Source of the DNA: a virus
Lineage: Duplodnaviria; Caudoviricetes
IMG/VR virus record: IMGVR_UViG_3300042868_009047
Reading direction: 5' to 3' (one strand)
DNA: 64,000 nt
The notes beneath the pieces are model-generated. The model was not told where the DNA came from, searched no databases, and was given only the letters and a program-made list of their open reading frames with translations. Shown here piece by piece: positions 44,752 through 63,999 of this stretch. A program made the translations under genes and the position numbers. Positions within the stretch are counted from its first letter, which is position 1. Each line of letters begins with the position of its first letter.

Positions 44752-45344
44752 TGTATTTACACGGCCACAAATTAAACACAAAACACCCAGATTTCGATAT
44801 CGAATGGTATAAATGTGTTTTCAAAGAGATTTGGTTAGATCACGAATACTCAAGATATGGTGTTGAAATTGAAAAAGGTGATGTGGTTGTCGATTGCGGG
44901 GCGAATGTTGGTTTTTTTACCAATTACGCCTTAAACCACAGAAAAGCAAAACACGTTTATTCATTTGAATGTGAGGAAACATTTGTTGAGTGTTTAAAAG
45001 AAAACACAAATGAAAATGTTACCATAACACAAGCGTTTGTTTCAGATAGGGATGAAGTTGGTCATTATAACATAGAAAAAATGTTACATGATTTTGGTTT
45101 AACACACATTGATTTTATTAAAGTGGATATTGAATGGTGGGAATACCCATTATTAATTAACATGTCTAATGAGACGATGAAGAGAGCAAACAAATGGGTA
45201 ATAGAATTACACAGCATTTACGAAAATTATGATAAAATAATGGACATAATTGAAAAATTCACATTAAATGGGTTTGATATCAATTATGAGCAAGTGCATA
45301 AAGAAACAAACCTAGCATTATTATACGTAAAAAAAAGAATATGA
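44751..45344 (+). CDS. FkbM-family SAM-dependent methyltransferase
   Basis: VVVDCGANVGFF, IDFIKVDIE. Confidence 0.85.
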   Translation: MYLHGHKLNTKHPDFDIEWYKCVFKEIWLDHEYSRYGVEIEKGDVVVDCGANVGFFTNYALNHRKAKHVYSFECEETFVECLKENTNENVTITQAFVSDRDEVGHYNIEKMLHDFGLTHIDFIKVDIEWWEYPLLINMSNETMKRANKWVIELHSIYENYDKIMDIIEKFTLNGFDINYEQVHKETNLALLYVKKRI

Positions 45345-49165: not shown

Positions 49166-49174
49166 GTATATTTG
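49148..49174 (+). promoter_or_regulatory. Possible host-type promoter
   Basis: TTTG, 15 nt, TATATTTG; spacing shorter than consensus. Confidence 0.4.
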
Positions 49175-49201
49175 TTGCTATAATGTAAGATAGCAACAAC
49201 T

Positions 49202-49771
49202 ATGTTTTATAAATATGATGAAAAACAACTCAGATTTGTTAAGAACAAACTGGGTATAAGAATAGCATTGGGAACCACCATTTTATTGATGGTTGGTTCC
49301 TTTTTTCTTGGCAGGTATTTCCAATCAGATGCGTTGGATAATATTGAAAATGAGGTTAAAATAGTTAACCTTCAAAAAGAAAAAGATAAATTTTCAAAAG
49401 AAAGATTTATTAGTGAATTAAAAAACAAAAAGGTTAAATTCCCTTACATCGTAATGGCCCAGGCTATTATGGAAAGTGGTTTGGGTAAAAGCAATTTATT
49501 TAAAGAAAACCATAATTTGTTTGGGATGCGTTTGGCTAGAAGTAGGATGACAACTGCCGCAGAATCAAAAAATAATTTTGCTTATTATAATAAGTGGCAA
49601 GATTGTGTGTTGGATATGGCTTATTTCCAAGCTTCTTATTTAAACGGAATTAACACCGAAGAAAAATACCTACTATATTTAGGTGCTAATTATGCAGAAT
49701 CACCAACTTACATAACAAAATTAAAAAGTGTTATAAACAATCAAAATCTAAAATCGTATTTTAATGAGTAA
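49202..49771 (+). CDS. Glucosaminidase-domain (GH73-like) peptidoglycan hydrolase with N-terminal TM
   Basis: AQAIMESG...NNLFG-like (HNLFGM), YAESPTY; hydrophobic segment at about aa 21-40. Confidence 0.8.
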   Translation: MFYKYDEKQLRFVKNKLGIRIALGTTILLMVGSFFLGRYFQSDALDNIENEVKIVNLQKEKDKFSKERFISELKNKKVKFPYIVMAQAIMESGLGKSNLFKENHNLFGMRLARSRMTTAAESKNNFAYYNKWQDCVLDMAYFQASYLNGINTEEKYLLYLGANYAESPTYITKLKSVINNQNLKSYFNE

Positions 49772-50597
49772 AGAAAAATTAAAAGATATACTCTCCACCC
49801 CAACTTATTGTGGGCAAGAACAATATCTTATAGCGAAAATAACAAGATATCTTAGTGAAAGTAATTTAGATTATGTTGTTGATGAACATGGCAATATCTA
49901 TGTAACAAAGGGTGTTGCTGATCACTACCCTTGTATTGTTGCCCATACAGATTCAGTCCATAGGATTGTTGAAATGGATATTCTTGAACGTGAGGATGAT
50001 GAGGATATTTTATACGCTGTTGAAAAGGGTACAAATAAAAGAACTGGGTGTGGCGGGGATAATAAGGCTGGTGTATACGTTTGCTTGGAATTACTTGAAC
50101 GTGTTGAGATTCTTAAAGCCGCTTTTTTTGTTTCAGAAGAATATGGTTGCTTTGGTTCAATACTTTCAGATGAGACATTCTTTGAAAACGTTGGATACAC
50201 ACTTCAATTTGATGCACCAGAAAATGATTGGGTAACCCATTATTGTAATGGTGTTAAACTATTTGATGAGGAAGGTGATTTTTATAAAACAATCCAACCA
50301 ATACTAGAAGATTACATGGGTGATTATTCTTTGGGTAGACACCCGTACACAGACGTAAGCGTTTTAGGAGCTTTTCATGACTTTTCTTGTATCAACTATT
50401 CAGTTGGTTATTACAACATGCATTCAAACATGGAGTATGTCAGCGTTGGTTTTACACAACAAGCCAAAAATATCGCTTTAGAGATCATTTCATCCCTGGG
50501 TAATATAAAGTATCCGTTTATAGATGAAACCGTCAGAATCGACAAAGAAAAGGCCAGAGAGAGGGCTTTAAAATCACTTAATGGTTTAAGAAAATAA
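49764..50597 (+). CDS. Zn peptidase, M20/M28/M42-like
   Basis: IVAHTDSV, GGDNKAG, SEEYGC.GS. Confidence 0.85.
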   Translation: MSKEKLKDILSTPTYCGQEQYLIAKITRYLSESNLDYVVDEHGNIYVTKGVADHYPCIVAHTDSVHRIVEMDILEREDDEDILYAVEKGTNKRTGCGGDNKAGVYVCLELLERVEILKAAFFVSEEYGCFGSILSDETFFENVGYTLQFDAPENDWVTHYCNGVKLFDEEGDFYKTIQPILEDYMGDYSLGRHPYTDVSVLGAFHDFSCINYSVGYYNMHSNMEYVSVGFTQQAKNIALEIISSLGNIKYPFIDETVRIDKEKARERALKSLNGLRK

Positions 50598-50622
50598 AAA
50601 AAGGGGTTTTAAACCCCTTTCT
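50596..50622. terminator. Bidirectional terminator between convergent genes
   Basis: AAAGGGG-ttttaaa-CCCCTTT flanked by A/T tracts. Confidence 0.8.
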
Positions 50623-50628
50623 TATTTA

Positions 50629-53600
50629 TTATTTTTTTAAATCTTGGATTTCTTTGTCAAGATCTTTTATTGCTTCAATAAGTAGACCAACCAAGTTTGA
50701 GTAAGCTACCCCTAAGTATCCGTCAGATTCTCTTGTTGATATAACCTCTGGGATAACTTTTTGAACTTCTTGTGCAATAACACCCATTTTCAATGATTTG
50801 TCCTCAACGTCATTTCTCGTATAGTTAACACCTCTCATACTTCTAACTTTATTCAAAGCATCGCTAATTGTAACAACATTATCCTTAACTCTTTCATCTG
50901 AGAATGCAATAACATCAGCAGAAGCGTAGATAGTACCACTAACATCCAATGTATATGATGGTGAGGCATTGTTAATACCAAGTCTGTTACTAGTTGTATC
51001 AACTTTCAAGAAGCTTACACTTTGTACTTGTGTTGCACTTGTTGTTCTAACCAAGTAGTCAGGTTGGTTTGTGAATGAACCACCACTGATACCAGATGTA
51101 CCATTAATAGATTGACCACTTGTTCCAGCAACACCTGTAGTACCATTTGTACCGTTAGCGCCTGATAAACCACCTGCACCGTTGTTACCATTGTTACCAG
51201 CTGCACCATTTGTACCGTTAGAACCATTTACACCTGATAAACCACCTGCACCGTTGTTACCGTTGTTACCAGCTGCACCATTTGTACCGTTAGAACCATT
51301 TACACCTGATAAACCACCTGCACCGTTGTTACCATTGTTACCAGCAACACCTGAAGTACCGTTTGCACCGTTGTTACCGTTGTTACCAGCTGCACCATTT
51401 GTACCATTTGAGCCGTTAACACCCGAAACACCACTATTACCATTACCACCGTTAAGACCATTAGCACCACCAGTACCTGTAGAACCATTAGTTCCACTTA
51501 CACCTGAGACACCACCAAGACCAACACCACCATTGTTACCGTTAGTACCGTTTGAACCATTTGAACCTGATAGACCTGATAAACCAGAGTTACCATTGTT
51601 ACCGTTGTTACCTGAAGTTCCGTTAGTACCAGTTGAACCTGAAGAACCAGAAAGTTGACTTATACCTGAAGGAACAGGTAAACCGTTTGTACCACCAGTG
51701 CCCGATGAACCTGAAGAACCACTCACCGCTGAATTACCATTACCACCAGCATTACCATTATTACCAGTTGTACCATTTGTACCTGTTGATCCTGATAGGC
51801 CTGAATTACCACTGTTACCATTAGCACCGTTGTTACCATTTGTACCAGCAGTTCCGTTAGAACCTGAAATACCACTTAAACCACTTACACCATTTCCACC
51901 ACTAGCACCTGATGTACCAGCTGTTCCGTTAGAACCTGATAGACCAGAATTACCTGAGTTACCGTTAGCACCATTATTACCGTTTGTACCATTTGTACCA
52001 GTCGATCCTGAAGAACCGCTCAATCTTGATAAACCAATAGCACCAGCATTACCTGTAGTACCGCTTGTACCTGTAGATCCAGAAGAACCAGATAAACCAC
52101 TTACACCATTTCCAGCACTAGCACCTGATGTACCAGCTGTTCCGTTAGAACCTGAAATACCACTTAAACCACTTACACCATTAGCACCATTGTTACCGTT
52201 AGTACCGTTTGATCCATTGGTCCCACTTAATCCAGAGTTACCTGAGTTACCGCTGTTACCATTGTTACCTGAAGTTCCGTTAGTACCAGTTGAACCTGAA
52301 GAACCACTCAATCTTGATAAACCAATAGTACCAGCATTACCTGAAGTACCATTTGTACCTGAAGATCCTGAAGAACCAGAAAGTTGACTTATACCTGAAG
52401 GAACAGGTAAACCGTTTGTACCACCAGTGCCCGATGAACCTGAAGAACCACTCACCGCTGAATTACCATTACCACCAGCATTACCTGTAGTACCTGTAGA
52501 ACCTGTTGACCCTGAAGTACCTGATAGGCCTGAATTACCGTTTCCACCAGCATTACCATTTGTACCATTTGAACCATTTGAACCTGATAAACCTGATAAA
52601 CCACTAACACCATTTCCACCACTAGCACCTGATGTACCAGCTGTTCCGTTAGAACCCGATAAACCAGATAAACCACTTACACCATTAGCACCATTGTTAC
52701 CATTTGTACCTGTAGATCCATTTGTTCCACTTAATCCAGAGTTACCGCTGTTACCGTTGTTACCTGTAGTTCCGTTAGTACCAGTTGATCCTGAAGATCC
52801 ACTATTAGCTGAAGCACCGATGTTACCAGCATTACCATTTGTACCGTTTGTACCTGTTGATCCTGAAGAACCAGAAAGTTGACTTATACCTGAAGGAACA
52901 GGTAAACCGTTTGTACCAGCAGTACCAGTCGAACCAGAGGTACCACTCACCGCTGAGTTACCATTAGCACCAGCATTACCTGTAGTACCATTTGTACCTG
53001 TTGATCCTGAAGAACCACTATTAGCACTTGCACCAATGTTACCAGCATTACCTGAAGTACCATTAGAACCTGAAGTTGCTGAAGAACCACTTAATCGTGA
53101 TGAACCTGAAGCACCCGCAGTACCTGAAGAACCAGAAGAACCAGAAGTTCCTGAAGAACCACCCAAACCACTATTACCAGCAGTTCCTGAAGAACCACTT
53201 GTTCCTGAAAGAGCGCTAATACCATTTAATCCAGCCACACCACCTGTACCGTTAGAACCAGTAGAACCAGATGAACCACTTAAAGCCGAAGCTCCGATGT
53301 TACCCGCATTACCCGATGTACCGTTAGAACCTGTTGAACCAGCAGAACCGCTTAAACCAGATGTTCCGCTAAATCCTGATTGACCTCTAAACCCTGTTGT
53401 TCCTGTTGTTCCTTCCGTACCTGAAGAACCTGAAGAACCAGCTAATCCTGAAGTCGCTGAAGAACCAGAAGTTCCAGAAGAACCTGACAATCCACTTAAA
53501 CCACTCGTACCATTTGTACCAGTTGATCCTGAAGACGCTGAACTACCAGAGTTAGCTGATAAACCATTACCACCGATTATACCTGTAGTACCATTTGTAC

Positions 53601-56600
53601 CAGTTGATCCTGAAGATCCACTATTAGCTGAAGCACCGATGTTACCAGCATTACCATTTGTACCGTTTGTACCAGTTGATCCTGAAGAACCTGATAGAGT
53701 ACTTATACCAGAACCAACAGCTAAACCATTTGTACCAGCAGTACCAGTTGATCCTGAAGAACCTGAAGATGCTGAAGAACCACTTAATTGTGATAAACCT
53801 GAGTTACCAGCAGTTCCGTTTGTACCAGTTGAACCTGAAGAACCAGAAGTTCCTGAAGAACCTGAGTTATTACTAGCACCATTGTTACCAACCGTACCAA
53901 TTGTACCTGAAGTTGCTGAAGTACCTGAAGTACCCGCAAAACCTGCTATTCTAGAAATACCGTCAGTACCAGCAGTACCAGTACTACCTGAACTACCTGA
54001 AGTACCACTTGATCTACTCAATGAAGACGCACCATCAGTACCATTTGTTCCAGAAGAACCAGAAGTTCCTGAAGAACCTGACGATCTACTTAAACCTGAT
54101 GTACCATTTGTACCAGTTGATCCTGAAGACGCTGAACTACCAGAGTTAGCTGATAAACCATTACCACCGATTATACCTGTAGTACCATTTGTACCAGTCG
54201 ATCCTGAAGACCCGCTTAATGCACTAGCACCTATATTTCCAGCATTACCTGAAGTACCATTAGAACCAGATGTGCCTGATGAACCTGAGTTATTACTCGC
54301 ACCATTATTACCCGCTGTACCAGTTGAACCTGAAGAACCAGCGGTTCCCGAACTTCTACTTAAACCAGACTGACCATCTGTACCATTTGTTCCTGAAGAA
54401 CCAGAAGATCCAGAAGAACCTGACAATCTTGATAAACCAGCGGTACCAGCGGTACCTGTAGAACCGCTAGATGCTGAAGAACCACTTAATTGTGATAAAC
54501 CTGAGTTACCAGCAGTTCCGTTTGTACCAGTTGACCCTGAACTACCAGATGTTCCTGAAGATCTACTTAAACTAGATTGACCATCGGTACCATTTGTTCC
54601 AGAAGAACCGCTTGTTCCAGAAGAACCAGAAGACCTACTTAAACCAGCAGTACCATTTGTTCCTGAAGAACCACTTGAACCGCTTGACGCACTTGATCCA
54701 CTATTTGAACTTAAACCTGATGTACCATTCGTACCAGTTGAACCTGAAGAACCTGAAGTTCCTGAGCTTCTACTTAAAGCAGACTGACCATCCGTACCAT
54801 TTGTTCCAGAAGAACCTGAAGTTCCTGAAGAACCTGAAGATCTACTTAAACCTGAAGTACCATTTGTTCCTGAAGAACCAGAAGAACCTGAAGAAGCAGA
54901 AGACCCAGACAATTGTGACAAACCTGAGTTACCTGCTGTACCATTTGTACCAGTTGAACCTGAAGTTGCAGAGCTACCTGAAGTTGAACTTAAACCACTA
55001 TTACCAGCATTACCTGATGTTCCATTTGTACCTGTAGAACCACTTGAACCTGAAGTTCCAGCTGAACCAGAACTTCTACTTAAACCTGATTGACCGTCTG
55101 TACCAGAAGTACCAGAGGTTCCAGCTGTTGCTGAAGATCCGCTTAATCTTGATAAACCTGATGTACCAACCGTACCATTTGTTCCTGAAGACCCCGAAGA
55201 TGCGCTAGAACCACTTAACTGAGATAAACCTGAGTTACCAGCGGTTCCGTTTGTACCAGTAGAACCTGAAGTAGCAGAGCTACCAGAAGATGCTGAAGCA
55301 CCTGATAAACCAGATGTACCGTTAGTACCAGTTGATCCTGAAGAACCAGCAGTTCCTGATGACCCAGAACTTCTACTTAATCCAGAAAGACCATCTGTAC
55401 CTGACGTACCTGTTGATCCAGAACTACCTGAAGTTCCAGAAGTATCACTTAATGCTGATTGGCCATCAGTTCCAGATGTACCTGAAGTTCCAGCTGTTGC
55501 TGAAGACCCACTTAATCTACTCGAACCGTTTGTACCAGCAGTACCAGTTGTTCCCGATGAACCTGAAGAAGCAGATGAACCACTTAATTGAGACAATCCA
55601 GAATTACCAGCTGTTCCGTTTGTTCCCGTAGAACCAGAGGTTGCTGATGAACCTGAAGATGCTGACGCACCCGATACACCCGCAGTACCGTCAGTACCTT
55701 TAGAACCACTTGAACCAGATGTTCCTGAAGTTCCTGATGTAACAGATATACCACTATTTGCGGCAACACCTGATGTACCAACTGTACCCGAAGTAGCTGA
55801 GCTACCAGAAGTTCCAGCTGAACCACTATTATTACTTGAACCAACTGTACCATTTGTACCCGTAGAACCTGAAGAACCACTTGTGCCTGAACTTCTACTT
55901 AAAGCAGATGCTCCGTCAGTACCTGAACTACCTGTTGATCCTGAACTACCTGAAGTTCCTGAAGTATCACTTAATGCTGACTGACCATCTGTACCAGAAG
56001 TACCAGATGTACCAGATGTTGCTGAAGACCCAGACAATCTGCCTAACCCAGATGTACCAATTGTACCCGAAGTAGCTGAGCTACCAGAAGTCGCTGAAGA
56101 ACCAGAGTTAGCTGAAGCACCGTTTGTACCAACTGTTCCAGTTGATCCTGAACTACCTGAAGTACCACTTGATCTACTTAGTGATGATTGGCCATCAGTA
56201 CCATTTGTTCCAGAAGAACCAGATGTTCCAGAAGAACCTGACGATCTACTTAAACCTGAAGTACCATTTGTTCCTGAAGAACCAGAAGATGCGCTTGAAC
56301 CACTTAACTGAGATAAACCCGAGTTACCAGCTGTTCCGTTTGAGCCAGATGTACCTGATGTAGCCGAACTACCAGCTGATCCTGAAGAACCACTTAATTG
56401 TGATAAACCGTTTGTACCCGCAGTACCTGAAGTAGCAGAAGAACCTGATGTAGCTGAGCTACCACTATTCGCTGAAGCACCATTTGTACCGTTCGTACCA
56501 GTACTACCAGAAGAACCAGATGTTCCTGAAGACCTACTCAATGAAGACGCACCATCCGTACCATTTGTTCCAGAAGAACCAGAAGTTCCTGAAGAACCTG

Positions 56601-59600
56601 ACGATCTACTTAAACCGCTTGTTCCGTTTGTTCCTGAAGAACCTGAAGATGCTGAAGACCCAGACAATTGTGACAAACCTGAGTTACCAGCTGTACCACT
56701 TGAACCAGAAGTTCCTGAAGTTGCTGAAGATCCCGAAGAACCACTTAACGCTGAAGAACCAACTGTACCTGCTGAACCTGAAGTTGCTGATGTACCAGAA
56801 GTTCCTGAAGAACCACTATTTGCACTAGCACCATTTGTACCAGTGGTACCAGTTGATCCTGAACTACCACTTGTACCTGAACTTCTACTTAAAGCAGAAG
56901 CACCATCTGTACCATTTGTTCCTGAAGACCCAGAAGTTCCAGAAGAACCCGAAGATCTACTCAAACCAGAAGTACCGTTAGTACCACTTGATCCTGAAGT
57001 TGCCGAAGAACCACTTAATTGTGATAAACCTGAAGCACCCGCAGTACCGTTTGTACCTGTAGATCCGCTTGATCCTGATGTTCCAGCTGAACCAGAACTT
57101 CTACTTAAACCTGATTGACCATCAGTTCCTGAAGTACCAGTCGATCCTGAAGAACCAGATGTACCTGAAGTATCACTTAATGCTGATTGGCCATCAGTAC
57201 CTGAGGTACCCGATGTACCAGCTGTTGCTGAAGAACCTGACAATCTTGATGAACCGTTTGTACCAGCGGTACCAGTTGTTCCTGAAGAACCACTTGATGC
57301 GCTTGACCCACTTAATTGTGACAATCCCGATAAACCAGCAGTACCATTTGTACCCGTAGAACCTGAAGACGCTGAAGTACCGCTCGATCCACTATTTGCG
57401 GATTGACCACTTGTACCAGCGCTACCTGAAGATGCTGATGAACCTGATGAACCTGATGTTCCTGAAGTTGCACTTGATCCAGCACTACCTGAAGATCCGC
57501 TTAACTGAGACAATCCTGATGTACCAACCGTTCCTGATGTTGCTGAAGAGCCTGATGTAGCTGAGCTACCTGAGTTAGCTGAAGCACCTGAAGTTCCGTT
57601 AGAACCTGTAGATCCTGAAGAACCAGATGTTCCGCTTGATCTACTTAATGATGATTGGCCATCAGTTCCTGAAGTACCAGTTGAACCTGATGAACCAGAA
57701 GTTCCTGAAGTATCACTTAACGCTGATTGACCGTCCGTACCTGAAGTACCTGACGTTCCAGCTGTTGCTGAAGACCCACTTAATCTACCCAATCCTGAGG
57801 TACCATTTGTACCTGAAGTTGCGGAAGATCCTGAAGTTGCGGAAGAACCACTATTTGCTGAAGCACCTGAAGTTCCGTTAGAACCAGTCGATCCAGAAGA
57901 ACCCGATGTTGCTGAAGAACCAGCAGAACCACTTAACGCTGAAGAACCTGCTGTTCCTGAAGTCCCAGAAGAACCTGCGCTACCAGCTGAACCACTTAAC
58001 GCTGAAGAACCAACTGTACCAGACGTACCAGAAGATGCTGATGAACCTGAAGTTCCAGCAGAACCTGAAAGTTGACTTAAACCTGAAGTACCGATTGTAC
58101 CTGAAGTAGCTGAGCTACCTGAAGTAGCTGAAGAACCGCTATTTGCGCTAGCACCGTTAGTACCGTTTGTACCTGTACTACCTGAACTACCTGATGTACC
58201 AGAACTTCTACTTAATGAAGACTGACCATCTGTACCATTTGTACCTGAAGAACCCGAAGTTCCTGAAGAACCTGAAGATCTACTCAAACCTGAAGTACCA
58301 TTTGTTCCTGAAGAACCGCTAGATGCTGAAGAACCGCTTAATTGAGATAATCCTGAGTTACCAGCTGTTCCATTTGAACCGCTTGTACCAGAAGTCGCTG
58401 AAGAACCAGCAGATCCACTTGAACCACTTAATGAACTTAAACCAGATGTACCCGCAGTACCACTTGTAGCAGAGCTACCAGCTGTTGCTGAAGAACCTGA
58501 ATTAGCAGATGCTCCGTTTGTACCGTTTGTACCCGTAGAACCACTTGAACCAGATGTACCAGAACTTCTACTTAACGCTGATGCACCATCCGTACCCGCT
58601 GATCCTGAAGAACCAGAAGAACCTGATGTACCACTTGTTGCTGAAGTACCCGCTGAGCCTGAGCTACCACTTAATTGTGATACTCCAGATGTTCCAGCTG
58701 TTCCTGATGTTGCGGAACTACCAGCTGTTGCTGAAGAACCACTATTTGAACTTAATCCTGACGTACCGTTTGTTCCAGTTGATCCTGAAGAACCAGCAGT
58801 TCCTGATGAACCTGAAGATCTACTCAAACCAGATTGTCCGTCAGTTCCTGAAGTTCCCGTAGAACCTGATGATCCAGAAGTTCCTGATGTATCACTTAAA
58901 GCTGACTGACCATCTGTACCAGATGTACCAGAGGTTCCAGCTGTTGCTGAAGATCCGCTTAATCTACCCAATCCTGAGGTACCCGCAGTACCACTTGTAG
59001 CTGAACTACCAGAAGTTGCTGAAGAACCTGAATTTGCACTTGCACCTGAAGTACCAGTAGAACCTGTTGAACCACTTGATGCAGATGTTCCTGAAGAACC
59101 ACTATTTGAAGATAAACCAGATGTACCGTTTGTACCAGTTGATCCTGAAGAACCACTAGAACCTGACGTACCGCTTGATTTACTTAATGCTGAAGCTCCA
59201 TCAGTACCAGATGTACCACTTGAACCTGAAGAACCAGATGTACCACTTGTTGCAGATGTTCCAGCAGAACCAGAAGAACCTGATAATTGAGACAATCCAG
59301 ATGTACCAACTGTACCTGAAGTGGCAGATGAACCAGAGGTTGCTGATGAACCGCTATTTGCTGAAGCGCCATTTGTACCGTTTGATCCAGTTGAACCACT
59401 TGAACCAGATGTTCCTGAAGATCTACTTAACGATGATTGACCATCAGTTCCTGAAGTTCCTGTTGATCCTGAAGAACCACTTGTTCCAGAAGTATCGCTT
59501 AAAGCTGATTGGCCATCTGTACCTGAAGTACCTGATGTACCAGCCGTTGCTGAAGAACCTGATAATCTACCTAAACCTGAAGTACCGTTTGTACCTGAAG

Positions 59601-62600
59601 TTGCGGAAGAACCAGATGTAGCTGAACTACCAGAGTTTGCCGATAAACCGCTTGTACCAGCTGATCCTGAAGAACCACTTGTTCCCGCTGTTGCTGAAGA
59701 ACCAGCTGAACCACTAGAACCACTTAACGCTGAAGAACCAACTGTACCTGCCGAACCTGAAGTTGCTGATGTACCGCTTGTTGCAGAAGAGCCACTATTT
59801 GAAGATAAACCAGATGTACCGTTTGTACCTGTTGATCCTGAACTTCCACTTGTACCTGAACTTCTACTTAAAGCAGATGCTCCGTCAGTACCAGCTGATC
59901 CTGAAGAACCACTTGATCCTGATGTACCTGAAGTCGCAGATGTACCAGCAGATCCAGAAGAACCTGAAAGTTGACTTAATCCTGATGTACCAATTGTACC
60001 ACTTGTTGCCGAACTACCAGAAGTTGCAGATGATCCAGAATTAGCACTTAATCCTGATGTTCCAGCTGAACCAGTACTTCCTGAAGAAGCTGATGTACCC
60101 GCTGAACCAGAAGATGCGCTTAAACCACTAGAACCTGATGTTCCTGAAGTCGCAGAAGAACCTGCGCTACCAGCAGAACCGCTTAATGCTGAACTACCTG
60201 AAGTACCAGTTGTACCGCTTGTTGCAGAACTACCAGCTGTTGCTGAAGAACCACTATTCGAACTCAACCCTGAAGTACCGTTTGTACCAGTTGAACCACT
60301 TGAACCAGAAGAACCTGAAGTTCCTGAAGATTTACTTAATGCTGATTGACCATCAGTTCCTGAAGTTCCAGTTGAACCACTTGATCCAGATGTACCAGAT
60401 GTATCACTTGTAGCAGAAACACCATCTGTACCTGAAGTACCTGATGTACCAGCTGTTGCTGAAGAACCGCTTAGTCTTGACAAACCTGAAGTACCGATTG
60501 TACCTGATGTAGCTGAAGAACCTGAAGTTGCTGATGAACCACTATTTGCGCTAACACCTGATGTACCAGCAGTACCTGTAGATCCAGAAGAACCTGAAGT
60601 TGCTGAACTACCACTTAATGCGCTAGCCCCTGAAGTTCCAGCCGAACCACTTGAACCTGAAGTTGCTGATGTTCCAGCTGAACCAGAACTTGCTGATAGA
60701 CCTGAAGACCCTGCGGTTCCTGAAGTTGCTGATGTACCAGCCGAACCTGAACTACCGCTTAATGCTGAGCTACCTGATGTACCAGTTGTACCACTTGTAG
60801 CTGAACTACCGCTTGTTGCAGATGATCCGCTATTAGCCGATAAACCTGAAGTACCATTTGTACCAGTTGATCCTGAAGATCCACTTGATCCAGATGTACC
60901 TGAAGATCTACTTAAACCTGATTGACCATCAGTTCCTGATGTACCTGTAGAACCACTTGATCCAGAAGTTCCTGAAGTATCACTTAACGCTGATTGACCG
61001 TCCGTACCTGAAGTACCTGATGTACCAGCTGTTGCTGAAGACCCACTTAATCTACCCAATCCTGAAGTACCATTTGTACCTGAAGTCGCTGATGAACCAC
61101 TTGTTGCTGAGCTACCAGAGTTTGCACTAGCACCTGAAGTACCAGCAGAACCTGTTGATCCTGAAGAACCAGAAGTCGCAGAAGAACCTGCGCTACCACT
61201 TAACGCTGAACTACCAGAAGTACCTGTTGTTCCAGAAGTAGCAGATGAACCTGCGCTCCCCGAAGATGCGCTCAATCCTGAGCTACCAGCTGTTCCTGAA
61301 GTAGCAGAGCTACCTGAAGTTGCCGAAGATCCGCTTAATTGAGATAAACCATTTGTACCAGCAGTACCAGTTGTACCAGAAGATGCTGATGTACCGCTTG
61401 AACCACTATTTGCAGCTAAACCTGAGGTACCATTTGTACCAGAAGTTGCTGATGAACCAGAAGAAGCTGAAGTTCCTGAAGAAGCAGATGCTCCTGAAGA
61501 TCCATTAGAACCTGATGAACCTGCGGTTCCTGAAGTTGCCGATGAACCAGAAGATGAACTTAATCCTGAAGACCCTGCGGTTCCAGAAGTTGCTGAAGTA
61601 CCCGCTGAACCACTCAATGCAGAACTACCAGATGTACCTGTTGTACCTGAAGTTGCTGATGAACCAGAAGTTGCTGAAGAACCCGAGTTAGCGCTTAGGC
61701 CTGACGTACCATTTGTACCAGTTGATCCTGAAGATCCGCTAGAACCAGATGTACCACTTGATTTACTCAATGCAGAAGCACCATCAGTTCCTGAAGTACC
61801 AGTCGATCCTGAAGAACCAGATGTACCTGAAGTATCACTTAAAGCAGATTGACCATCAGTACCTGAGGTACCCGATGTACCAGCTGTTGCTGAAGAACCA
61901 GACAATCTTGATAAACCTGAAGTACCATTTGTACCTGAAGTAGCAGAAGAACCAGACGATGCCGAAGTTCCTGAGGAAGCTGAAGCTCCTGAAGAACCAG
62001 CTGATCCAGCTGAACCTGATGTTCCAGCTGTTGCTGAAGAACCACTTGAAGCACTTAAACCTGAAGATCCAGCTGTTCCTGAGGTAGCCGAACTACCTGA
62101 AGTTGCTGAAGATCCGCTTAATGCACTTAAACCACTCGTACCATTTGTACCTGAAGTAGCTGAACTACCAGACGATGCTGATGTTCCTGAAGATGCCGAA
62201 GCTCCTGAAGAACCTGATGATCCCGTAGAACCTGCGGTTCCTGATGTTGCTGAACTACCAGAACTTGCACTCAACCCTGATGAACCTGCGGTTCCAGAAG
62301 TTGCTGAAGATCCTGATGTTGCTGAACTACCACTATTTGAAGATAATCCTGATGTACCGTTTGTACCTGATGTAGCTGAGCTACCTGATGTACCTGATGA
62401 ACCAGAACTATTACTATTTCCACTCGAACCTGCGGTCCCTGAAGAAGCTGAACTTCCTGAAGAACCTGATGTACCGCTAGTCGCAGATGATCCACTTGTA
62501 GCAGATGATCCCGAATTAGCAGCCAATCCTGAGGTACCATTTGTACCTGAAGTTGCTGATGAACCAGATGATGCCGAAGTTCCTGAAGAAGCTGAAGCAC

Positions 62601-63999
62601 CTGAAGAACCATTAGAACCAGTTGAACCTGATGTACCGCTTGACGCTGATGTACCTGAAGAAGCGCTTAAACCTGAACTTCCAGCTGTTCCTGACGTAGC
62701 AGAGCTACCTGAAGTTGCTGAAGAACCACTATTTGAACTCAATCCCGAAGTACCGTTTGTTCCACTTGTAGCAGAAGAACCAGAACTTGCAGATGTACCT
62801 GAAGAAGCTGAAGCGCCTGAAAAACCAGCTGATCCACTTGTACCTGAAGTACCTGAAGAAGCTGAACTTCCAGATGATGCACTTAAACCAGAACTTCCAG
62901 CCGTTCCTGAGGTAGCGGAGCTACCTGAAGTTGCTGAAGAACCCGAGTTAGCGGCCAACCCTGATGTACCATTTGTACCTGAAGTAGCTGAACTACCAGA
63001 CGATGCTGATGTTCCTGAAGAAGCTGACGCACCACTTGACCCAGCTGAACCTGAAGATCCTGAGGTCGCAGAAGTTCCTGAAGAACCAGCTGAACCCGAA
63101 CTACCTGAATTAGCAGCTAAACCTGAAGTACCATTTGTACCTGAAGTAGCTGAACTACCAGACGATGCTGATGTTCCTGAAGAAGCGGAAGCCCCTGATG
63201 AACCAACAGAACCTGTTGAACCTGAAGTTCCACTTGTTGCTGAAGACCCAGCAGAAGAACTTAAACCTGAAGATCCAGCCGTACCACTTGTAGCAGAGCT
63301 ACCTGAAGTTGCTGATGAACCACTATTACCTGATAAACCACCAGTACCATTTGTTCCTGAAGAACCAGAAGATCCTGATGTAGCTGAAATAGCTGAAATA
63401 CCATCAGCACCATCAACCCCACTTGAACCTGAAGTTCCTGATGAACCAGATGTTTTACTTGAACCAGCTAAACCACTTGTACCTGTTGTACCCGAAGTTG
63501 CTGATGAACCACTTGTTGCTGAAGACCCTGAATTAGCTGATAAACCACTTGTACCAGCTGTTCCTGAAGTTGCAGATGAACCAGATGATGCTGATGTTCC
63601 TGAAGATGCTGATGCCCCTGATGAACCTGATGTACCAGCTGTTCCACTTGTAGCTGAAGAACCTGATGTTGCAGATGTACCTGAAGAAGCTGAAGCTCCA
63701 CTTGAACCTGCCGAACCACTAGTTGCAGATGTACCTGAAGAAGCTGAACTTCCAGATGATGCACTTAAACCAGAACTTCCAGCCGTTCCTGACGTTGCAG
63801 ACGAACCAGAAGAAGCCGAAGAACCCGAATTAGCAGCTAAACCTGAGGTACCGTTTGTACCTGAAGTTGCTGATGATCCTGATGTAGCTGAACTACCGCT
63901 TAAAGCAGAAGCCCCACTTGTACCTGATGAACCTGAACTACCTGATGTAGCTGAAGTACCTGAAGTTGCTGATGAACCACTATTTGCACTCAAACCTGA
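50629..63999 (-). CDS. Giant Ser/Gly/Thr triplet-repeat fibre protein with C-terminal peptidase S74 intramolecular chaperone; 5'-truncated (>4450 aa)
   Basis: Frame is open to the window edge. C-terminus: LGINNASPSYTLDVSG, SDERVK, GVIAQEV, VAYSNLVGLLIEAIK. Confidence 0.9.
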   Translation of the reverse strand, partial: SGLSANSGSSATSGTSATSGSSGSSGTSGASALSGSSATSGSSATSGTNGTSGLAANSGSSASSGSSATSGTAGSSGLSASSGSSASSGTSATSGSAGSSGASASSGTSATSGSSATSGTAGTSGSSGASASSGTSASSGSSATSGTAGTSGLSANSGSSATSGSSATSGTTGTSGLAGSSKTSGSSGTSGSSGVDGADGISAISATSGSSGSSGTNGTGGLSGNSGSSATSGSSATSGTAGSSGLSSSAGSSATSGTSGSTGSVGSSGASASSGTSASSGSSATSGTNGTSGLAANSGSSGSAGSSGTSATSGSSGSAGSSGASASSGTSASSGSSATSGTNGTSGLAANSGSSATSGSSATSGTAGSSGLSASSGSSASSGTSGTSGSAGFSGASASSGTSASSGSSATSGTNGTSGLSSNSGSSATSGSSATSGTAGSSGLSASSGTSASSGTSGSTGSNGSSGASASSGTSASSGSSATSGTNGTSGLAANSGSSATSGSSATSGTSGSSGSSASSGTAGSSGNSNSSGSSGTSGSSATSGTNGTSGLSSNSGSSATSGSSATSGTAGSSGLSASSGSSATSGTAGSTGSSGSSGASASSGTSASSGSSATSGTNGTSGLSALSGSSATSGSSATSGTAGSSGLSASSGSSATAGTSGSAGSAGSSGASASSGTSASSGSSATSGTNGTSGLSRLSGSSATAGTSGTSGTDGQSALSDTSGTSGSSGSTGTSGTDGASALSKSSGTSGSSGSSGSTGTNGTSGLSANSGSSATSGSSATSGTTGTSGSSALSGSAGTSATSGTAGSSGLSSSSGSSATSGTAGSSGSNGSSGASASSGTSASSGSSATSGTNGTSGLAANSGSSGTSASSGTTGTAGTNGLSQLSGSSATSGSSATSGTAGSSGLSASSGSAGSSATSGTTGTSGSSALSGSAGSSATSGSSGSTGSAGTSGASANSGSSATSGSSATSGTNGTSGLGRLSGSSATAGTSGTSGTDGQSALSDTSGTSGSSGSTGTSGTDGQSGLSRSSGTSGSSGSSGSTGTNGTSGLSANSGSSATSGSSATSGTTGTSGSSALSGSSGSAGTSATSGTAGSSGLSASSGSAGTSATSGSSGSAGTSGASALSGSSATSGSSGSTGTAGTSGVSANSGSSATSGSSATSGTIGTSGLSRLSGSSATAGTSGTSGTDGVSATSDTSGTSGSSGSTGTSGTDGQSALSKSSGTSGSSGSSGSTGTNGTSGLSSNSGSSATAGSSATSGTTGTSGSSALSGSAGSAGSSATSGTSGSSGLSASSGSAGTSASSGSTGSAGTSGLSANSGSSATSGSSATSGTIGTSGLSQLSGSSGSAGTSATSGTSGSSGSSGSAGTDGASALSRSSGTSGSSGSTGTNGTSGLSSNSGSSATSGTSATSGSAGTVGSSALSGSSGSAGSSATAGTSGSSGSAGTSGLSANSGSSATSGSSATSGTNGTSGLGRLSGSSATAGTSGTSGTDGQSALSDTSGTSGSSGSTGTSGTDGQSSLSRSSGTSGSSGSTGSNGTNGASANSGSSATSGSSATSGTVGTSGLSQLSGSSGSAGTSATSGTSGSSGSSGTSGTDGASALSKSSGTSGSSGSSGSTGTNGTSGLSSNSGSSGTSASSGSTGSTGTSGASANSGSSATSGSSATSGTAGTSGLGRLSGSSATAGTSGTSGTDGQSALSDTSGTSGSSGSTGTSGTDGQSGLSRSSGSSGTAGSSGSTGTNGTSGLSSNSGSSATAGSSATSGTAGTSGVSQLSGSSGSAGTSATSGTSGSSGSSGSAGTDGASALSRSSGTSGSSGSTGTNGTNGASANSGSSATAGSSATSGTAGTSGLSSLSGSSGSAGSSATSGTSGSNGTAGNSGLSQLSGSSASSGSSGTNGTSGLSRSSGSSGTSGSSGTNGTDGQSSLSRSSGTSGSSGSTGTNGTNGASANSGSSATSGSSATSGTIGTSGLSQLSGSAGTSGSSASSGTSGTVGSSALSGSAGSAGSSGTSGTAGSSALSGSAGSSATSGSSGSTGSNGTSGASANSGSSATSGSSATSGTNGTSGLGRLSGSSATAGTSGTSGTDGQSALSDTSGTSGSSGSTGTSGTDGQSSLSRSSGTSGSSGSTGSNGTSGASANSGSSATSGSSATSGTVGTSGLSQLSGSSGSAGSSATSGTSGSSGSSASSGSAGTSGQSANSGSSGTSASSGSTGTNGTAGLSGLSQLSGSSASSGSSGTTGTAGTNGSSRLSGSSATAGTSGTSGTDGQSALSDTSGTSGSSGSTGTSGTDGQSGLSRSSGSAGTSGSSGSTGTNGTAGASGLSQLSGSSATSGSSGTNGTSGLSRSSGSSGTSGSSGTNGTDGASALSRSSGTSGSSGSTGTTGTNGASANSGSSGTSGTSATSGSAGTVGSSALSGSSGSSATSGTSGSSGTAGNSGLSQLSGSSASSGSSGTNGTSGLSRSSGSSGTSGSSGTNGTDGASSLSRSSGTSGSSGSTGTNGTNGASANSGSSATSGSSATSGTAGTNGLSQLSGSSGSAGSSATSGTSGSNGTAGNSGLSQLSGSSASSGSSGTNGTSGLSRSSGSSGTSGSSGTNGTDGQSSLSRSSGTSGSSGSTGTVGTNGASANSGSSATSGSSATSGTIGTSGLGRLSGSSATSGTSGTSGTDGQSALSDTSGTSGSSGSTGSSGTDGASALSRSSGTSGSSGSTGTNGTVGSSNNSGSAGTSGSSATSGTVGTSGVAANSGISVTSGTSGTSGSSGSKGTDGTAGVSGASASSGSSATSGSTGTNGTAGNSGLSQLSGSSASSGSSGTTGTAGTNGSSRLSGSSATAGTSGTSGTDGQSALSDTSGTSGSSGSTGTSGTDGLSGLSRSSGSSGTAGSSGSTGTNGTSGLSGASASSGSSATSGSTGTNGTAGNSGLSQLSGSSASSGSSGTNGTVGTSGLSRLSGSSATAGTSGTSGTDGQSGLSRSSGSAGTSGSSGSTGTNGTSGNAGNSGLSSTSGSSATSGSTGTNGTAGNSGLSQLSGSSASSGSSGSSGTNGTSGLSRSSGSSGTSGSSGTNGTDGQSALSRSSGTSGSSGSTGTNGTSGLSSNSGSSASSGSSGSSGTNGTAGLSRSSGSSGTSGSSGTNGTDGQSSLSRSSGTSGSSGSTGTNGTAGNSGLSQLSGSSASSGSTGTAGTAGLSRLSGSSGSSGSSGTNGTDGQSGLSRSSGTAGSSGSTGTAGNNGASNNSGSSGTSGSNGTSGNAGNIGASALSGSSGSTGTNGTTGIIGGNGLSANSGSSASSGSTGTNGTSGLSRSSGSSGTSGSSGTNGTDGASSLSRSSGTSGSSGSTGTAGTDGISRIAGFAGTSGTSATSGTIGTVGNNGASNNSGSSGTSGSSGSTGTNGTAGNSGLSQLSGSSASSGSSGSTGTAGTNGLAVGSGISTLSGSSGSTGTNGTNGNAGNIGASANSGSSGSTGTNGTTGIIGGNGLSANSGSSASSGSTGTNGTSGLSGLSGSSGTSGSSATSGLAGSSGSSGTEGTTGTTGFRGQSGFSGTSGLSGSAGSTGSNGTSGNAGNIGASALSGSSGSTGSNGTGGVAGLNGISALSGTSGSSGTAGNSGLGGSSGTSGSSGSSGTAGASGSSRLSGSSATSGSNGTSGNAGNIGASANSGSSGSTGTNGTTGNAGANGNSAVSGTSGSTGTAGTNGLPVPSGISQLSGSSGSTGTNGTNGNAGNIGASANSGSSGSTGTNGTTGNNGNSGNSGLSGTNGSTGTNGNNGANGVSGLSGLSGSNGTAGTSGASGGNGVSGLSGLSGSNGSNGTNGNAGGNGNSGLSGTSGSTGSTGTTGNAGGNGNSAVSGSSGSSGTGGTNGLPVPSGISQLSGSSGSSGTNGTSGNAGTIGLSRLSGSSGSTGTNGTSGNNGNSGNSGNSGLSGTNGSNGTNGNNGANGVSGLSGISGSNGTAGTSGASAGNGVSGLSGSSGSTGTSGTTGNAGAIGLSRLSGSSGSTGTNGTNGNNGANGNSGNSGLSGSNGTAGTSGASGGNGVSGLSGISGSNGTAGTNGNNGANGNSGNSGLSGSTGTNGTTGNNGNAGGNGNSAVSGSSGSSGTGGTNGLPVPSGISQLSGSSGSTGTNGTSGNNGNNGNSGLSGLSGSNGSNGTNGNNGGVGLGGVSGVSGTNGSTGTGGANGLNGGNGNSGVSGVNGSNGTNGAAGNNGNNGANGTSGVAGNNGNNGAGGLSGVNGSNGTNGAAGNNGNNGAGGLSGVNGSNGTNGAAGNNGNNGAGGLSGANGTNGTTGVAGTSGQSINGTSGISGGSFTNQPDYLVRTTSATQVQSVSFLKVDTTSNRLGINNASPSYTLDVSGTIYASADVIAFSDERVKDNVVTISDALNKVRSMRGVNYTRNDVEDKSLKMGVIAQEVQKVIPEVISTRESDGYLGVAYSNLVGLLIEAIKDLDKEIQDLKK
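51079..63999 (-). repeat. ~12.9 kb coding repeat in triplet register (G/A)-X-(S/N/A)
   Basis: Translation parses as GSS ATS GTN GTS GLS ANS...; higher GC than the rest of the window. Confidence 0.97.

What the first reader, a model, noticed from the sequence alone, without database searches (positions are those of the whole stretch)
50629..63999. Proline-poor triplet-repeat fibre of >4450 aa: not a normal collagen
Seen: triplet register in every segment I parsed across ~12.9 kb. In the N-terminal part, position 1 is often Ala or Arg/Gln/Lys/Asp rather than Gly (ATS, ANS, RLS, QLS, DTS). Toward the C-terminus it shifts to almost pure Asn-rich Gly-X-Y (GNN GAG GLS GVN). Proline appears essentially only in three GLPVPS units. 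The S74 domain (SDERVK) implies a trimer with autocleavage. Known: collagen helices need Gly at every third residue. Inference: an interrupted triple helix, a polyglycine-II bundle or a glycan-stiffened brush. If extended, it could be around a micron long.
Basis: partly seen in the sequence, partly recalled or inferred. Interest (0 to 1): 0.7.

Follow-up and report, generated by a model that had tools for sequence, protein, structure and literature searches.

The report
Giant proline-free collagen-like phage fibre
A lake-water relative of phage T4 encodes a fibre protein of more than 4,450 residues, built from 1,433 unbroken three-residue repeats with no proline and with alanine or even arginine often replacing the "obligatory" glycine, so it is probably a sugar-coated, micron-long, loosened version of the collagen triple helix.

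Summary
The minus-strand ORF 50629-63999 (5'-open, 4,456 aa) has one unbroken triplet register over 1,433 triplets. Position 1 is Gly 77%, Ala 16%, Arg/Gln/Ser/Asp/Lys 7%. The only prolines in the repeat are three GLPVPS units. The C-terminus is a true S74 intramolecular chaperone: Pfam hit, invariant Ser/Lys dyad, fold match to MyRF ICA.

The non-Gly positions follow rules:
- They are flanked by Ser (95% against 60%, p=1e-40).
- Never more than two occur in a row.
- Gly and Ala interchange between orthologues.
- Gly purity rises from 64% to about 100% toward the C-terminal nucleation domain, also in three orthologues (2,718-4,968 aa).

Pro and KGD/KGE salt bridges are absent, leaving glycosylation as the candidate stabiliser. 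A TibC-type protein-serine glycosyltransferase with intact catalytic and iron-finger residues lies 1.5 kb away. In IMG/VR its relatives travel with such fibres (15 of 17 loci with full flanks).

Best reading: a C-to-N zipped, glycan-stabilised, interrupted collagen-type trimer, an accessory virion fibre about 1.2-1.4 µm long. Helicity of the Ala-rich part, glycosylation and virion attachment are untested.

This scan had already found similar giant fibres and the TibC pairing on other DNA. It is a new variant of a known kind.

The parts
51100..63996 (-). Triplet-repeat shaft: 1,433 unbroken (G/A/x)-X-Y triplets (aa 2-4300). It continues beyond the window end.
59497..63996 (-). Ala-rich zone (aa 2-1501). 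Position 1 is 20-36% Ala, often alternating as GaGaGaGGG (GSS-ATS units).
53647..59496 (-). Middle zone (aa about 1502-3451). In-register interruptions G-L-S-[R/Q/K/D]-[S/L]-S-G recur about every 7-8 triplets.
51100..53646 (-). Near-pure Gly-X-Y, Asn-rich zone (aa about 3452-4300), with runs of up to 60 consecutive Gly triplets. It holds the three GLPVPS units (52891-52908, 52396-52413, 51667-51684). Proposed helix nucleation zone.
50902..51108 (-). 69-residue beta-strand stalk/tip (INGTSGISGG...DVIAF) kept in the mature fibre. It is conserved across relatives, including those with other C-terminal domains.
50884..50901 (-). SDERVK: predicted autocleavage Ser4367 and general-base Lys4372 of the S74 domain.
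50632..50901 (-). S74 intramolecular chaperone part predicted to be released (aa 4367-4456, 90 aa).
50597..50623 (.). Bidirectional terminator-like hairpin between the convergent fibre gene and the 277-aa gene.
47894..49165 (+). TibC/Aah-type (BAHT) protein O-glycosyltransferase homologue, the candidate modifier of the fibre's serines.
41998..47913 (+). Further sugar-modifying genes: GT1 (917 aa), FkbM methyltransferase, GT1/GT4 (316 aa), carbamoyltransferase.
49202..50597 (+). Glucosaminidase-domain protein (189 aa) and a 277-aa protein of PHROG 4191 ('peptidase'), facing the fibre gene's 3' end. Also present in relatives.

Best explanation
The gene encodes an accessory virion fibre of a distant T4-like lake phage. 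Three identical chains are brought into register by the C-terminal S74 intramolecular chaperone. This nucleates the short beta stalk and the adjoining zone of near-perfect Gly-X-Y triplets. A parallel collagen-type (polyproline-II based) triple helix then zips from C to N. The chaperone cuts itself off at Ser4367.

Further from the nucleus the helix is increasingly relaxed. Ala, the smallest side chain, replaces Gly in up to every second triplet. Arg, Lys or Gln sit in the Gly column about every 24 residues as in-register hinges. Each such position is cushioned by flanking Ser and by Gly triplets.

The chain has neither proline nor Lys-Gly-Asp/Glu salt bridges. Stability and stiffness are therefore proposed to come from O-glycosylation of its roughly 2,100 Ser/Thr (Ser fills 68% of Y positions). 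The proposed enzymes are the adjacent TibC-type glycosyltransferase and the accompanying transferases. This would parallel glycosylated Thr in tube-worm cuticle collagen and in BclA.

The mature molecule would be a flexible sugar-coated thread about 1.2-1.4 µm long. Orthologues have an N-terminal anchor of about 45 residues and a small conserved tip. The thread would act as a long-range tether or capture line rather than as a classical receptor-specific tail fibre.

Shown: the sequence anatomy, the S74 domain, conservation, and the linkage to the TibC-type enzyme. Inferred: the triple helix in the Ala-rich part, glycosylation, virion attachment and function.
For: Register and grammar:
- There are 1,433 triplets without a break.
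- All higher-order DNA repeat periods are multiples of 9 nt, although copies are only 61-98% alike.
- About 53 of 58 indels between orthologues are multiples of 3 residues. Position 1 is the most conserved (86-89% identity, against 44-63%), and G<->A is its main exchange.
- Non-Gly positions are preceded by Ser in 95.4%, against 60.4% before Gly (p=1.4e-40). They carry Ser at Y in 94% and never exceed two in a row. Adjacent pairs number 25, against 74 expected.
- Leu occurs only at X (180/0) and Asp only at Y.

Gradient: Gly purity rises toward the C-terminus here and in three orthologues. This fits C-to-N folding of collagens (PMC11923368).

Trimerising end:
- Pfam S74 hit.
- S/D/K invariant in 33 sequences.
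- AF2 model with pLDDT 83.6 matches MyRF ICA 7dc3 (TM 0.63/0.73). Weaker matches to the K1F, GA-1 and T5 fibre chaperones follow in the list.
- PHROG tail-fibre families match the C-terminus.

Stabiliser audit: Pro 0.2% and KGD/KGE 0.

Glycosylation:
- The neighbour matches TibC at E 2.5e-58. Asp110, Lys230, Arg286, Trp305 and the four iron-finger Cys are conserved (residues from PMC4358343).
- 237 relatives are found in IMG/VR. 42 of 80 loci, and 15 of 17 with full 10-kb flanks, carry a proline-poor triplet ORF.
- The same pairing occurs in cultured Microcystis phage Mel-JY01.

Reality of the gene:
- Complete orthologues of 4,968, 3,682 and 2,718 aa exist.
- An independent assembly agrees at 99.7-99.98% over 6 kb.
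- Exact contigs from three RNA libraries lie along the gene.
Against: - 23% of 'Gly' positions are not Gly. From my own knowledge of model-peptide work, even one Gly-to-Ala change lowers the melting temperature of a proline-rich collagen peptide by about 30 degrees, and this chain has no proline.
- Arg and Lys cannot sit in a tight collagen core.
- No sugar, trimer or virion location has been observed.
- Strict register could partly reflect slippage of 9-nt units rather than selection.
- dN/dS in the repeat (0.22-0.55) rests on uncertain alignments.
- TibC is known to act on beta-helical autotransporters, not on collagen.
- RNA libraries can hold DNA.
- The N-terminus and the attachment site of this copy were not seen.
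- A close relative (L007) lacks the giant fibre, so it is not essential.
Confidence: 0.5

Rival explanations
1. Only the C-terminal few hundred near-perfect Gly-X-Y triplets form a triple helix. The Ala-rich and Arg-interrupted N-terminal three quarters are three unwound, heavily glycosylated, mucin-like strands (a bottle-brush tether). Their triplet pattern is inherited from repeat expansion and from the transferase's site preference.
For: Gly falls to 64% at the N-side, and Arg/Lys sit in the Gly column. Pro and salt bridges are absent. Longer orthologues owe their extra length to Ala-rich units: Ala 6% at 2,718 aa and 19% at 4,969 aa. The unglycosylated (Gly-Pro-Thr)10 peptide is a random coil (quoted in PMC11923368).
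Against: A disordered chain has no need for an unbroken register across 3,000 residues of diverged repeats. It also would not need Ser flanks around every non-Gly, a ban on more than two non-Gly triplets in a row, or strict X/Y asymmetry. The same rules hold in orthologues.
Confidence: 0.3
2. The chain folds back on itself into a polyglycine-II bundle or a beta-solenoid, giving a shorter and thicker rod.
For: Triplet Gly repeats occur in PGII bundles such as snow-flea antifreeze protein and the phage gp38 tip (own knowledge). A period of about 24 residues in Leu and in the interruptions is visible.
Against: There is only one small residue per triplet (Gly 26%), so only one face of each helix can pack. 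Repeat periods are 24, 27, 48, 54, 69, 72, 96, 117 and 123 aa, with no constant coil length. Period-3 power dwarfs every other period. The C-terminal trimeric chaperone argues for parallel chains.
Confidence: 0.05
3. The protein is not part of the virion. It is made in the infected cell for another purpose, such as a surface or matrix polymer, or a decoy.
For: It is dispensable in a close relative. There is no recognisable virion-attachment domain: the N-terminus of orthologues is only about 45 residues with no family match. The mature tip is tiny and conserved.
Against: Orthologue N-termini start MANEHIIRSG, which does not look like a signal peptide (by eye). The S74 C-terminus matches PHROG tail-fibre families. 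The upstream sister fibre in relatives has a tail-fibre-type N-terminus with PHROG tail-fibre hits.
Confidence: 0.1
4. The extreme length is an assembly artefact of a shorter repeat gene.
For: Most public contigs break inside the gene. Short-read contigs show many repeat-induced joints. One 72-nt length difference separates two assemblies.
Against: Independent assemblies give complete orthologues of 2,718-4,968 aa with the same architecture. An independent contig agrees over 6 kb. Exact single-copy-depth pieces lie all along the gene in a DNA run. Most repeat copies are under 85% alike, so they are resolvable.
Confidence: 0.05

Closest known systems
Collagen-like tail-fibre and minor-tail proteins of phages and prophages ('Bacteriophage collagen', Smith et al. 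1998, own knowledge; EPclA of E. coli O157 prophages, PMC3368898; PHROG 1806 'collagen like minor tail')
   Same: Gly-X-Y shaft in a trimeric phage fibre between small terminal domains. No hydroxyproline.
   Different: Those shafts are tens to about a hundred triplets long and owe their stability to proline and charged residues (as quoted for EPclA in PMC11923368). This one has at least 1,433 triplets, 0.2% Pro, no KGD/KGE, and 23% non-Gly at the Gly position.
Fibres and spikes with a C-terminal S74 intramolecular chaperone: K1F endosialidase (3gw6), GA-1 neck appendage (3gud), T5 L-shaped tail fibre pb1 (4uw8), MyRF ICA (7dc3)
   Same: Same domain, with an invariant Ser/Lys dyad (SDxxxK). Fold match TM 0.63/0.73 to 7dc3. 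The beta stalk precedes the cleavage site.
   Different: In the known cases the chaperone folds a triple beta-helix or beta-rich shaft. Here it sits at the end of a collagen-type shaft more than 4,000 residues long.
Riftia cuticle collagen and Bacillus BclA (glycosylated Thr at the Y position)
   Same: Proline-poor Gly-X-Y with a hydroxy amino acid at Y. Glycosylation substitutes for hydroxyproline (Mann et al. 1996 and the (GPT)10 peptide work, as cited in PMC11923368). Riftia cuticle collagen is also micron-long (own knowledge).
   Different: Here Y is Ser, not Thr. Pro is absent altogether. Gly itself is often replaced. Glycosylation is only inferred.
TibC-TibA / Aah-AIDA-I (bacterial autotransporter heptosyltransferases, PDB 4rap, PMC4358343)
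   Same: The neighbouring enzyme keeps the catalytic base, the sugar-binding residues and the iron finger. TibC hyper-glycosylates serines of a long repetitive fibre-like protein in the cytoplasm.
   Different: The presumed substrate is a collagen-like phage fibre, not a beta-helical autotransporter. The sugar-selectivity residue Pro300 is Gly, so the sugar may differ.
Gly-to-Ala substituted collagen model peptide and natural in-register interruptions (C1q C-chain Ala-for-Gly kink); own knowledge
   Same: A triple helix can keep its register across an Ala in the Gly column, with local loosening. Ala is the least harmful replacement, and Ala is by far the commonest replacement here.
   Different: Those are single sites in a proline-rich helix. 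Here the replacement recurs up to every second triplet over thousands of residues.

Membership tests
Collagen triple helix (canonical) | Gly at every third residue without exception over the helical domain | tested here: not met
   Gly is 77.3% of position 1 overall and 64% at the N-side. The rule is met only locally near the C-terminus, in runs of 60, 38, 32, 21 and 18 Gly triplets.
Collagen triple helix (canonical) | Unbroken three-residue register | tested here: met
   One phase over 1,433 triplets. Period-3 power is 1,512 against 6.8 or less in shuffles.
Collagen triple helix (canonical) | Sequence-encoded stabilisers: imino acids at X/Y, or KGE/KGD-type interchain salt bridges | tested here: not met
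   Six Pro in 4,299 repeat residues. KGD/KGE count is 0. Only 3 of 90 D/E/K/R residues in the repeat lie anywhere other than position 1 or Asp at Y. Criteria from PMC11923368.
Collagen triple helix (canonical) | Adjacent trimerisation/nucleation domain, at the C-terminal side for C-to-N zipping | tested here: met
   S74 chaperone directly after the purest Gly-X-Y zone.
Collagen triple helix (canonical) | Physical triple helix (PPII CD signature, cooperative melt, trimer) | not testable with these tools
Peptidase S74 / intramolecular chaperone of fibre proteins (PF13884) | Profile match above the curated cut-off at the extreme C-terminus | tested here: met
   54.5 bits against a cut-off of 22. 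PHROG tail-fibre C-termini match at E down to 1e-32.
Peptidase S74 / intramolecular chaperone of fibre proteins (PF13884) | Ser-Lys catalytic dyad in S-D-x-x-x-K | tested here: met
   SDERVK at aa 4367-4372. S, D and K are invariant in 33 aligned relatives. It aligns with the cleavage site of MyRF.
Peptidase S74 / intramolecular chaperone of fibre proteins (PF13884) | ICA fold | tested here: met
   AF2 model with pLDDT 83.6. Foldseek gives 7dc3 at E 8e-7, TM 0.63/0.73, rmsd 2.1 A. 3gw6, 3gud and 4uw8 follow.
Peptidase S74 / intramolecular chaperone of fibre proteins (PF13884) | Autocleavage and trimer-dependent folding | not testable with these tools
   Needs expression of the wild type and of Ser4367 or Lys4372 mutants.
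BAHT (TibC/Aah) protein O-heptosyltransferases, for the neighbouring gene 47894-49165 | Catalytic base Asp110, sugar-binding Lys230, Arg286 and Trp305, and four iron-finger Cys (339, 342, 358, 370) | tested here: met
   All are conserved in the phmmer alignment to 4rap_A (E 2.5e-58). Thr226 is Ser and Pro300 is Gly (residue list from PMC4358343).
BAHT (TibC/Aah) protein O-heptosyltransferases, for the neighbouring gene 47894-49165 | Glycosylates serines of a cognate repetitive protein encoded nearby | tested here: inconclusive
   Genetic linkage is strong: 42 of 80 loci, and 15 of 17 with full flanks. No chemistry has been shown.
Polyglycine-II bundle (snow-flea AFP / gp38-tip type) | Gly on two faces of each PGII helix (Gly about 40-50%) and short helices joined by regular turns | tested here: not met
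   Gly is 26%, with one small residue per triplet. No constant super-period is seen. The criterion itself is from my own knowledge.

The most novel reading that the evidence does not exclude
The family defines a new structural variant of the collagen fold. It would be a micron-long homotrimeric helix that needs neither proline nor salt bridges. It would tolerate Ala in every second core position, and Arg/Lys at periodic in-register hinges. It would be held together by dense Ser-O-glycosylation installed by a phage TibC-type enzyme. Phages would use it as a capture line many times longer than the virion.
Probability: 0.3. Interest if true: 0.8.

Novelty: new variant of a known kind. Interest (0 to 1): 0.6.

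Why it matters
If the Ala-rich, proline-free shaft really is helical, it breaks two textbook rules of collagen: Gly at every third residue, and stabilisation by imino acids or salt bridges. It would also point to glycosylated serine as a third stabiliser.

It would be a natural, sequence-simple scaffold for studying how far the triple helix can be relaxed, which is relevant to Gly-substitution diseases and to designed collagen materials.

For phage biology, a thread of 1.2-1.4 µm on a virion of roughly 0.1 µm would change how encounter and adsorption are pictured in dilute lake water. It would also give a function to the glycosyltransferase clusters that are usually read as host-LPS modifiers, for example in PMC7029224.

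The family is abundant. This phage occurs in at least 20 lake-water runs, and 237 IMG/VR loci encode a relative of the transferase.

Tried and rejected
- The AF2 monomer of aa 4180-4456 without an alignment was useless, with pLDDT 39.
- No whole genome is held for the window. An exact-pattern scan of IMG/VR for the window's end found nothing. The N-terminus of this copy was therefore not seen, and I used orthologues instead.
- The search of giant S74-ended proteins seeded on the C-terminal domain gave 143 hits, none with a long triplet shaft. The best was 24 G/A triplets.
- The profile-free search of 1.84 billion representatives with aa 2000-3199 returned ordinary proline-containing collagens at the top. 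Only 1 of 150 had Pro under 1%, and 3 of 150 had Ala at 8% or more of position 1. It missed the true orthologues, probably because of composition correction. It is no census of the family.
- The N-terminal heads gave no Pfam or PHROG family for fibre A. The language-model look-alike of the sister fibre's head to T4 gp9/gp10 N-domain (score 0.91) is a lead only, and fibre A's head gave nothing.
- RNA-library contigs are absent on 49000-50000.
- Literature searches for a micron-long collagen-like phage fibre, or for TibC together with collagen, found none. No paper on Mel-JY01 is held.
- I considered a beta-solenoid or silk-like reading and rejected it. A period-3 small-residue stripe places G and A on opposite faces of a beta strand, and there is no constant coil length.
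Full report
**The observation.** The region 50629-63999 holds one minus-strand ORF that runs off the window's end, giving 4,456 residues. The plus-strand ORFs listed there are mirror images of the repeat (PEVPEEP-type) and are not credible genes.
- A sliding-window test finds one phase for the small-residue column from residue 1 to about 4,340.
- Cut into triplets, there are 1,433 in a row. Position 1 is Gly 77.3%, Ala 15.6%, Arg 2.8%, Gln 1.4%, Ser 1.3%, Asp 0.6%. Position 2 is Thr 37%, Ser 34%, Leu 13%, Asn 7%. Position 3 is Ser 68%, Asn 11%, Ala 9%.
- Period-3 power of the Gly/Ala indicator is 1,512, against at most 6.8 in 500 shuffles.
- Only six prolines lie in the repeat, in three GLPVPS units.

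**Anatomy of the end.**
- After the last triplet comes a 69-residue beta-strand stalk (INGTSGISGG...DVIAF). SDERVK follows at aa 4367-4372, and then 84 more residues.
- Pfam finds Peptidase_S74 at 54.5 bits, with a cut-off of 22.
- In an alignment of 33 relatives, Ser, Asp and Lys of SDxxxK are invariant.
- The Ser aligns with the cleavage site of the MyRF ICA domain.
- An AF2 model built on that alignment (pLDDT 83.6) matches 7dc3 with TM 0.63/0.73 and rmsd 2.1 A. Weaker matches follow to the K1F endosialidase, GA-1 and T5 pb1 chaperones and to Bdellovibrio fibre stalks.
- The trimerising, self-cleaving end is therefore well supported.
- A bidirectional terminator-like hairpin (50597-50623) closes the gene.

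**Context.**
- The window is a phage. It holds a T4-type portal (33285-35138), a gp23-type capsid protein (40311-41891) and a large terminase. GC is about 31% outside the fibre gene.
- The capsid protein is only 33% identical to its best GenBank matches, Microcystis phage Mel-JY01 and Flavobacterium phage immuto.
- The DNA is present in at least 20 lake-water metagenome runs.
- Between the capsid gene and the fibre lie a GT1 protein, an FkbM methyltransferase, a GT1/GT4 protein, a carbamoyltransferase, a GT9-like protein, a glucosaminidase-domain protein and a 277-aa PHROG-4191 protein. All of these are convergent with the fibre gene.

**Relatives.**
- The GT9-like protein has 237 relatives in IMG/VR. 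Many of those contigs stop inside a repeat gene.
- Of 80 loci fetched, 42 show a proline-poor run of 30 or more triplets. Of the 17 loci with full 10-kb flanks, 15 do.
- Orthologues of this fibre are complete in three independent assemblies, at 4,968, 3,682 and 2,718 aa.
- Each has only about 45 N-terminal non-repeat residues (MANEHIIRSG...), then triplets, then the same stalk and S74 end.
- Their registers are unbroken for 2,500-2,800 residues. Several of the close relatives (G001 and G002 among them) show one shift about 110 residues before the end.
- In two of these relatives a second giant collagen-like gene (2,574 and 3,513 aa) lies directly upstream. In G001 Gly is 96-100% of position 1 almost throughout; in G002 it falls to 67-87% in the C-terminal half. 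Its N-terminus is of tail-fibre type. A ClpB-like ATPase follows.
- A close relative (transferase 91% identical, L007) has no giant fibre. It carries only a 495-aa protein with two short GTSGSS runs. The giant fibre is therefore accessory, and its length is highly plastic.
- An independent ENA contig matches this window's fibre for 6 kb at 99.7-99.98%, with one 72-nt (eight-triplet) length difference.
- Three metatranscriptome libraries contain exact 151-272-nt contigs at many places along the gene. This is weak evidence of transcription, because RNA libraries can hold DNA.

**Is the pattern constrained?**
- All tandem-repeat periods found are multiples of 9 nt (72 to 369 nt), although copies are only 61-98% alike.
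- In alignments of the last 1,300 residues with three orthologues, about 53 of 58 indels are multiples of three residues. Position 1 is 86-89% identical, against 44-63% for X and Y. The commonest change at position 1 is Gly<->Ala.
- Non-Gly positions obey a grammar:
  - The residue before them is Ser in 95.4%, against 60.4% before Gly (Fisher p 1.4e-40).
  - Their own Y residue is Ser in 94%.
  - 274 of 324 are flanked by Gly triplets on both sides.
  - Never more than two occur in a row (25 adjacent pairs against 74 expected).
- X and Y are sharply different: Leu 180/0, Thr 524/85, Asp 0/34.
- Basic residues sit almost only in the Gly column. Counts by position 1/X/Y are Arg 40/0/1 here, Arg 36/6/0 and Lys 30/1/3 in orthologues. 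They are mostly spaced 7-8 triplets apart, in the motif G-L-S-[R/K/Q]-[S/L]-S-G.
- Gly purity climbs from 64% to about 100% toward the C-terminus in this protein and in all three orthologues.
- dN/dS estimates (0.22-0.30 at position 1, 0.26-0.55 at X/Y, 0.09-0.12 in the C-terminal domain) point the same way. They rest on uncertain repeat alignments.
- Together these features argue for a three-residue-periodic structure with a buried small-residue stripe. They argue against a featureless spacer.

**What kind of structure?**
- A stripe of one small residue per three is what a polyproline-II helix packed in a three-chain collagen-type bundle requires.
- A beta strand would put successive stripe residues on opposite faces.
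- A PGII sandwich needs Gly on two faces. No constant coil length exists for a solenoid.
- Ala being by far the commonest replacement fits a collagen-type core. It is the least destabilising substitution in model peptides, and a Gly-to-Ala peptide keeps its register with local loosening (own knowledge).
- Arg and Lys cannot be buried. These conserved sites must be local openings, acting as hinges, landing sites or binding sites. I could not decide which.
- The gradient of Gly purity next to a C-terminal trimeriser matches the C-to-N zipper folding of collagens (PMC11923368).

**Stabilisers.** That paper names three: proline or hydroxyproline, Lys-Gly-Asp/Glu salt bridges, and glycosylated Thr.
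- Here Pro is 0.2% and KGD/KGE triplets number zero, also in the orthologues.
- What remains is about 2,100 Ser/Thr, with Ser at 68% of Y positions.
- The GT9-like neighbour is a close homologue of TibC (PDB 4rap, E 2.5e-58). TibC is the dodecameric enzyme that heptosylates serines of the TibA adhesin.
- The catalytic base Asp110, Lys230, Arg286, Trp305 and the four iron-finger cysteines are all conserved. Thr226 is Ser. The sugar-selectivity residue Pro300 is Gly (against PMC4358343).
- Only 4 of 50,697 GenBank phage records encode such an enzyme. One is cultured Microcystis phage Mel-JY01.
- In Mel-JY01 the enzyme is fused to an FkbM domain. It lies about 1.7 kb downstream of a GTS/GSS collagen-like ORF of at least 1,016 aa, with two small genes between. 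That ORF is annotated on the wrong strand.
- I therefore think the fibre is sugar-coated and that the sugars do the work of hydroxyproline, as galactosyl-Thr does in Riftia cuticle collagen. This step is inferred, not shown.

**Function.**
- The mature protein would be a thread of about 1.23 µm for the part in the window, and about 1.4 µm in the 4,968-aa orthologue.
- It would have a tiny anchor and a small tip that is conserved (dN/dS about 0.1) even between phages with diverged transferases. That is unlike a hypervariable receptor-binding domain.
- It is dispensable in a close relative.
- I read it as an accessory capture or tether line, possibly binding through its glycans. Where it attaches on the virion is unknown.

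**Comparison and novelty.**
- Collagen-like phage fibres and S74-ended fibres are both known. Collagen-like polypeptides of up to about 2,000 triplets have been noted in prokaryotes (PMC11923368).
- Pelagimyophage work noted collagen repeats and glycosyltransferases in the same host-recognition cluster but read the enzymes as LPS modifiers (PMC7029224).
- The papers I could search did not describe the combination of micron length, absence of both sequence stabilisers, rule-governed replacement of a quarter of the glycines, and linkage to a TibC-type enzyme.
- This scan has already reported similar giant proline-free fibres and the TibC pairing on other DNA. The family is therefore not new to the scan.
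- The grammar of the non-Gly positions and the gradient are what this report adds. I class it as a new variant of a known kind.

**Limits.**
- The N-terminus of this copy lies outside the window.
- The repeat number rests on assembly.
- Glycosylation, trimer state and virion location need the bench.

Noticed in passing
window 3920-5620 (+): A 566-aa protein with a 20-triplet GTS/GSS/GSN collagen-like linker (aa about 181-240) between two globular parts. It is a third protein of this phage lineage using the same proline-free triplets, and so another possible substrate of the TibC-like enzyme.
   Followed up: partly
G001 (IMGVR_UViG_3300043410_002285) 18479-26200 = L086/L088; G002 7663-18201 = L089/L087: A second giant collagen-like fibre gene (2,574 and 3,513 aa) lies directly upstream of the S74 fibre in relatives. 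In G001 Gly is 96-100% of position 1 almost throughout; in G002 it falls to 67-87% in the C-terminal half. It carries Glu at X and Asp at Y. Its N-terminus is MATVTIYLR..LSYAELDANF, and its C-terminal domain differs. The same gene probably lies just beyond this window's end.
   Followed up: partly
L007 13947-16412 (-); G001 26291-28768 (-): A phage-encoded ClpB-like double AAA+ ATPase (AAA_2, ClpB_D2-small) sits next to the fibre genes in relatives. It could be a folding or disaggregation helper for the giant fibres.
   Followed up: no
L090 (Microcystis phage Mel-JY01, PP395634.1) 1-3052: The record starts inside a GTS/GSS collagen-like ORF of at least 1,016 aa on the + strand. GenBank annotates two 'hypothetical proteins' on the opposite strand instead. 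A 1,226-aa FkbM-TibC fusion lies about 1.7 kb downstream, after two small genes.
   Followed up: partly
window 49764-50597 (+): A 277-aa protein with no Pfam family matches PHROG 4191 ('peptidase', E 3e-37). It is conserved at the same place facing the fibre's 3' end in relatives (L007, L009, L081-85).
   Followed up: no
window 47894-49165 (+), residue aligned to TibC Pro300: The residue that sets ADP-D,D- versus L,D-heptose selectivity in TibC/Aah (Pro300/Ser294) is Gly in the phage enzyme, so the donor sugar may not be heptose.
   Followed up: no
window about 51187-51273 versus L081 about 10733-10891: Two independent assemblies of the same phage differ by one 72-nt (24-aa, eight-triplet) repeat unit. 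This is an in-register length polymorphism or an assembly difference.
   Followed up: partly
window 14398-15834 (+): A further two-domain GT2-family glycosyltransferase lies far from the fibre cluster.
   Followed up: no
LR756501.1 580141-581325; LR756504.1 457178-458263: The 735-kb and 636-kb 'huge phage' records also encode TibC-like proteins (37-41% identity). Their neighbourhoods were not inspected.
   Followed up: no
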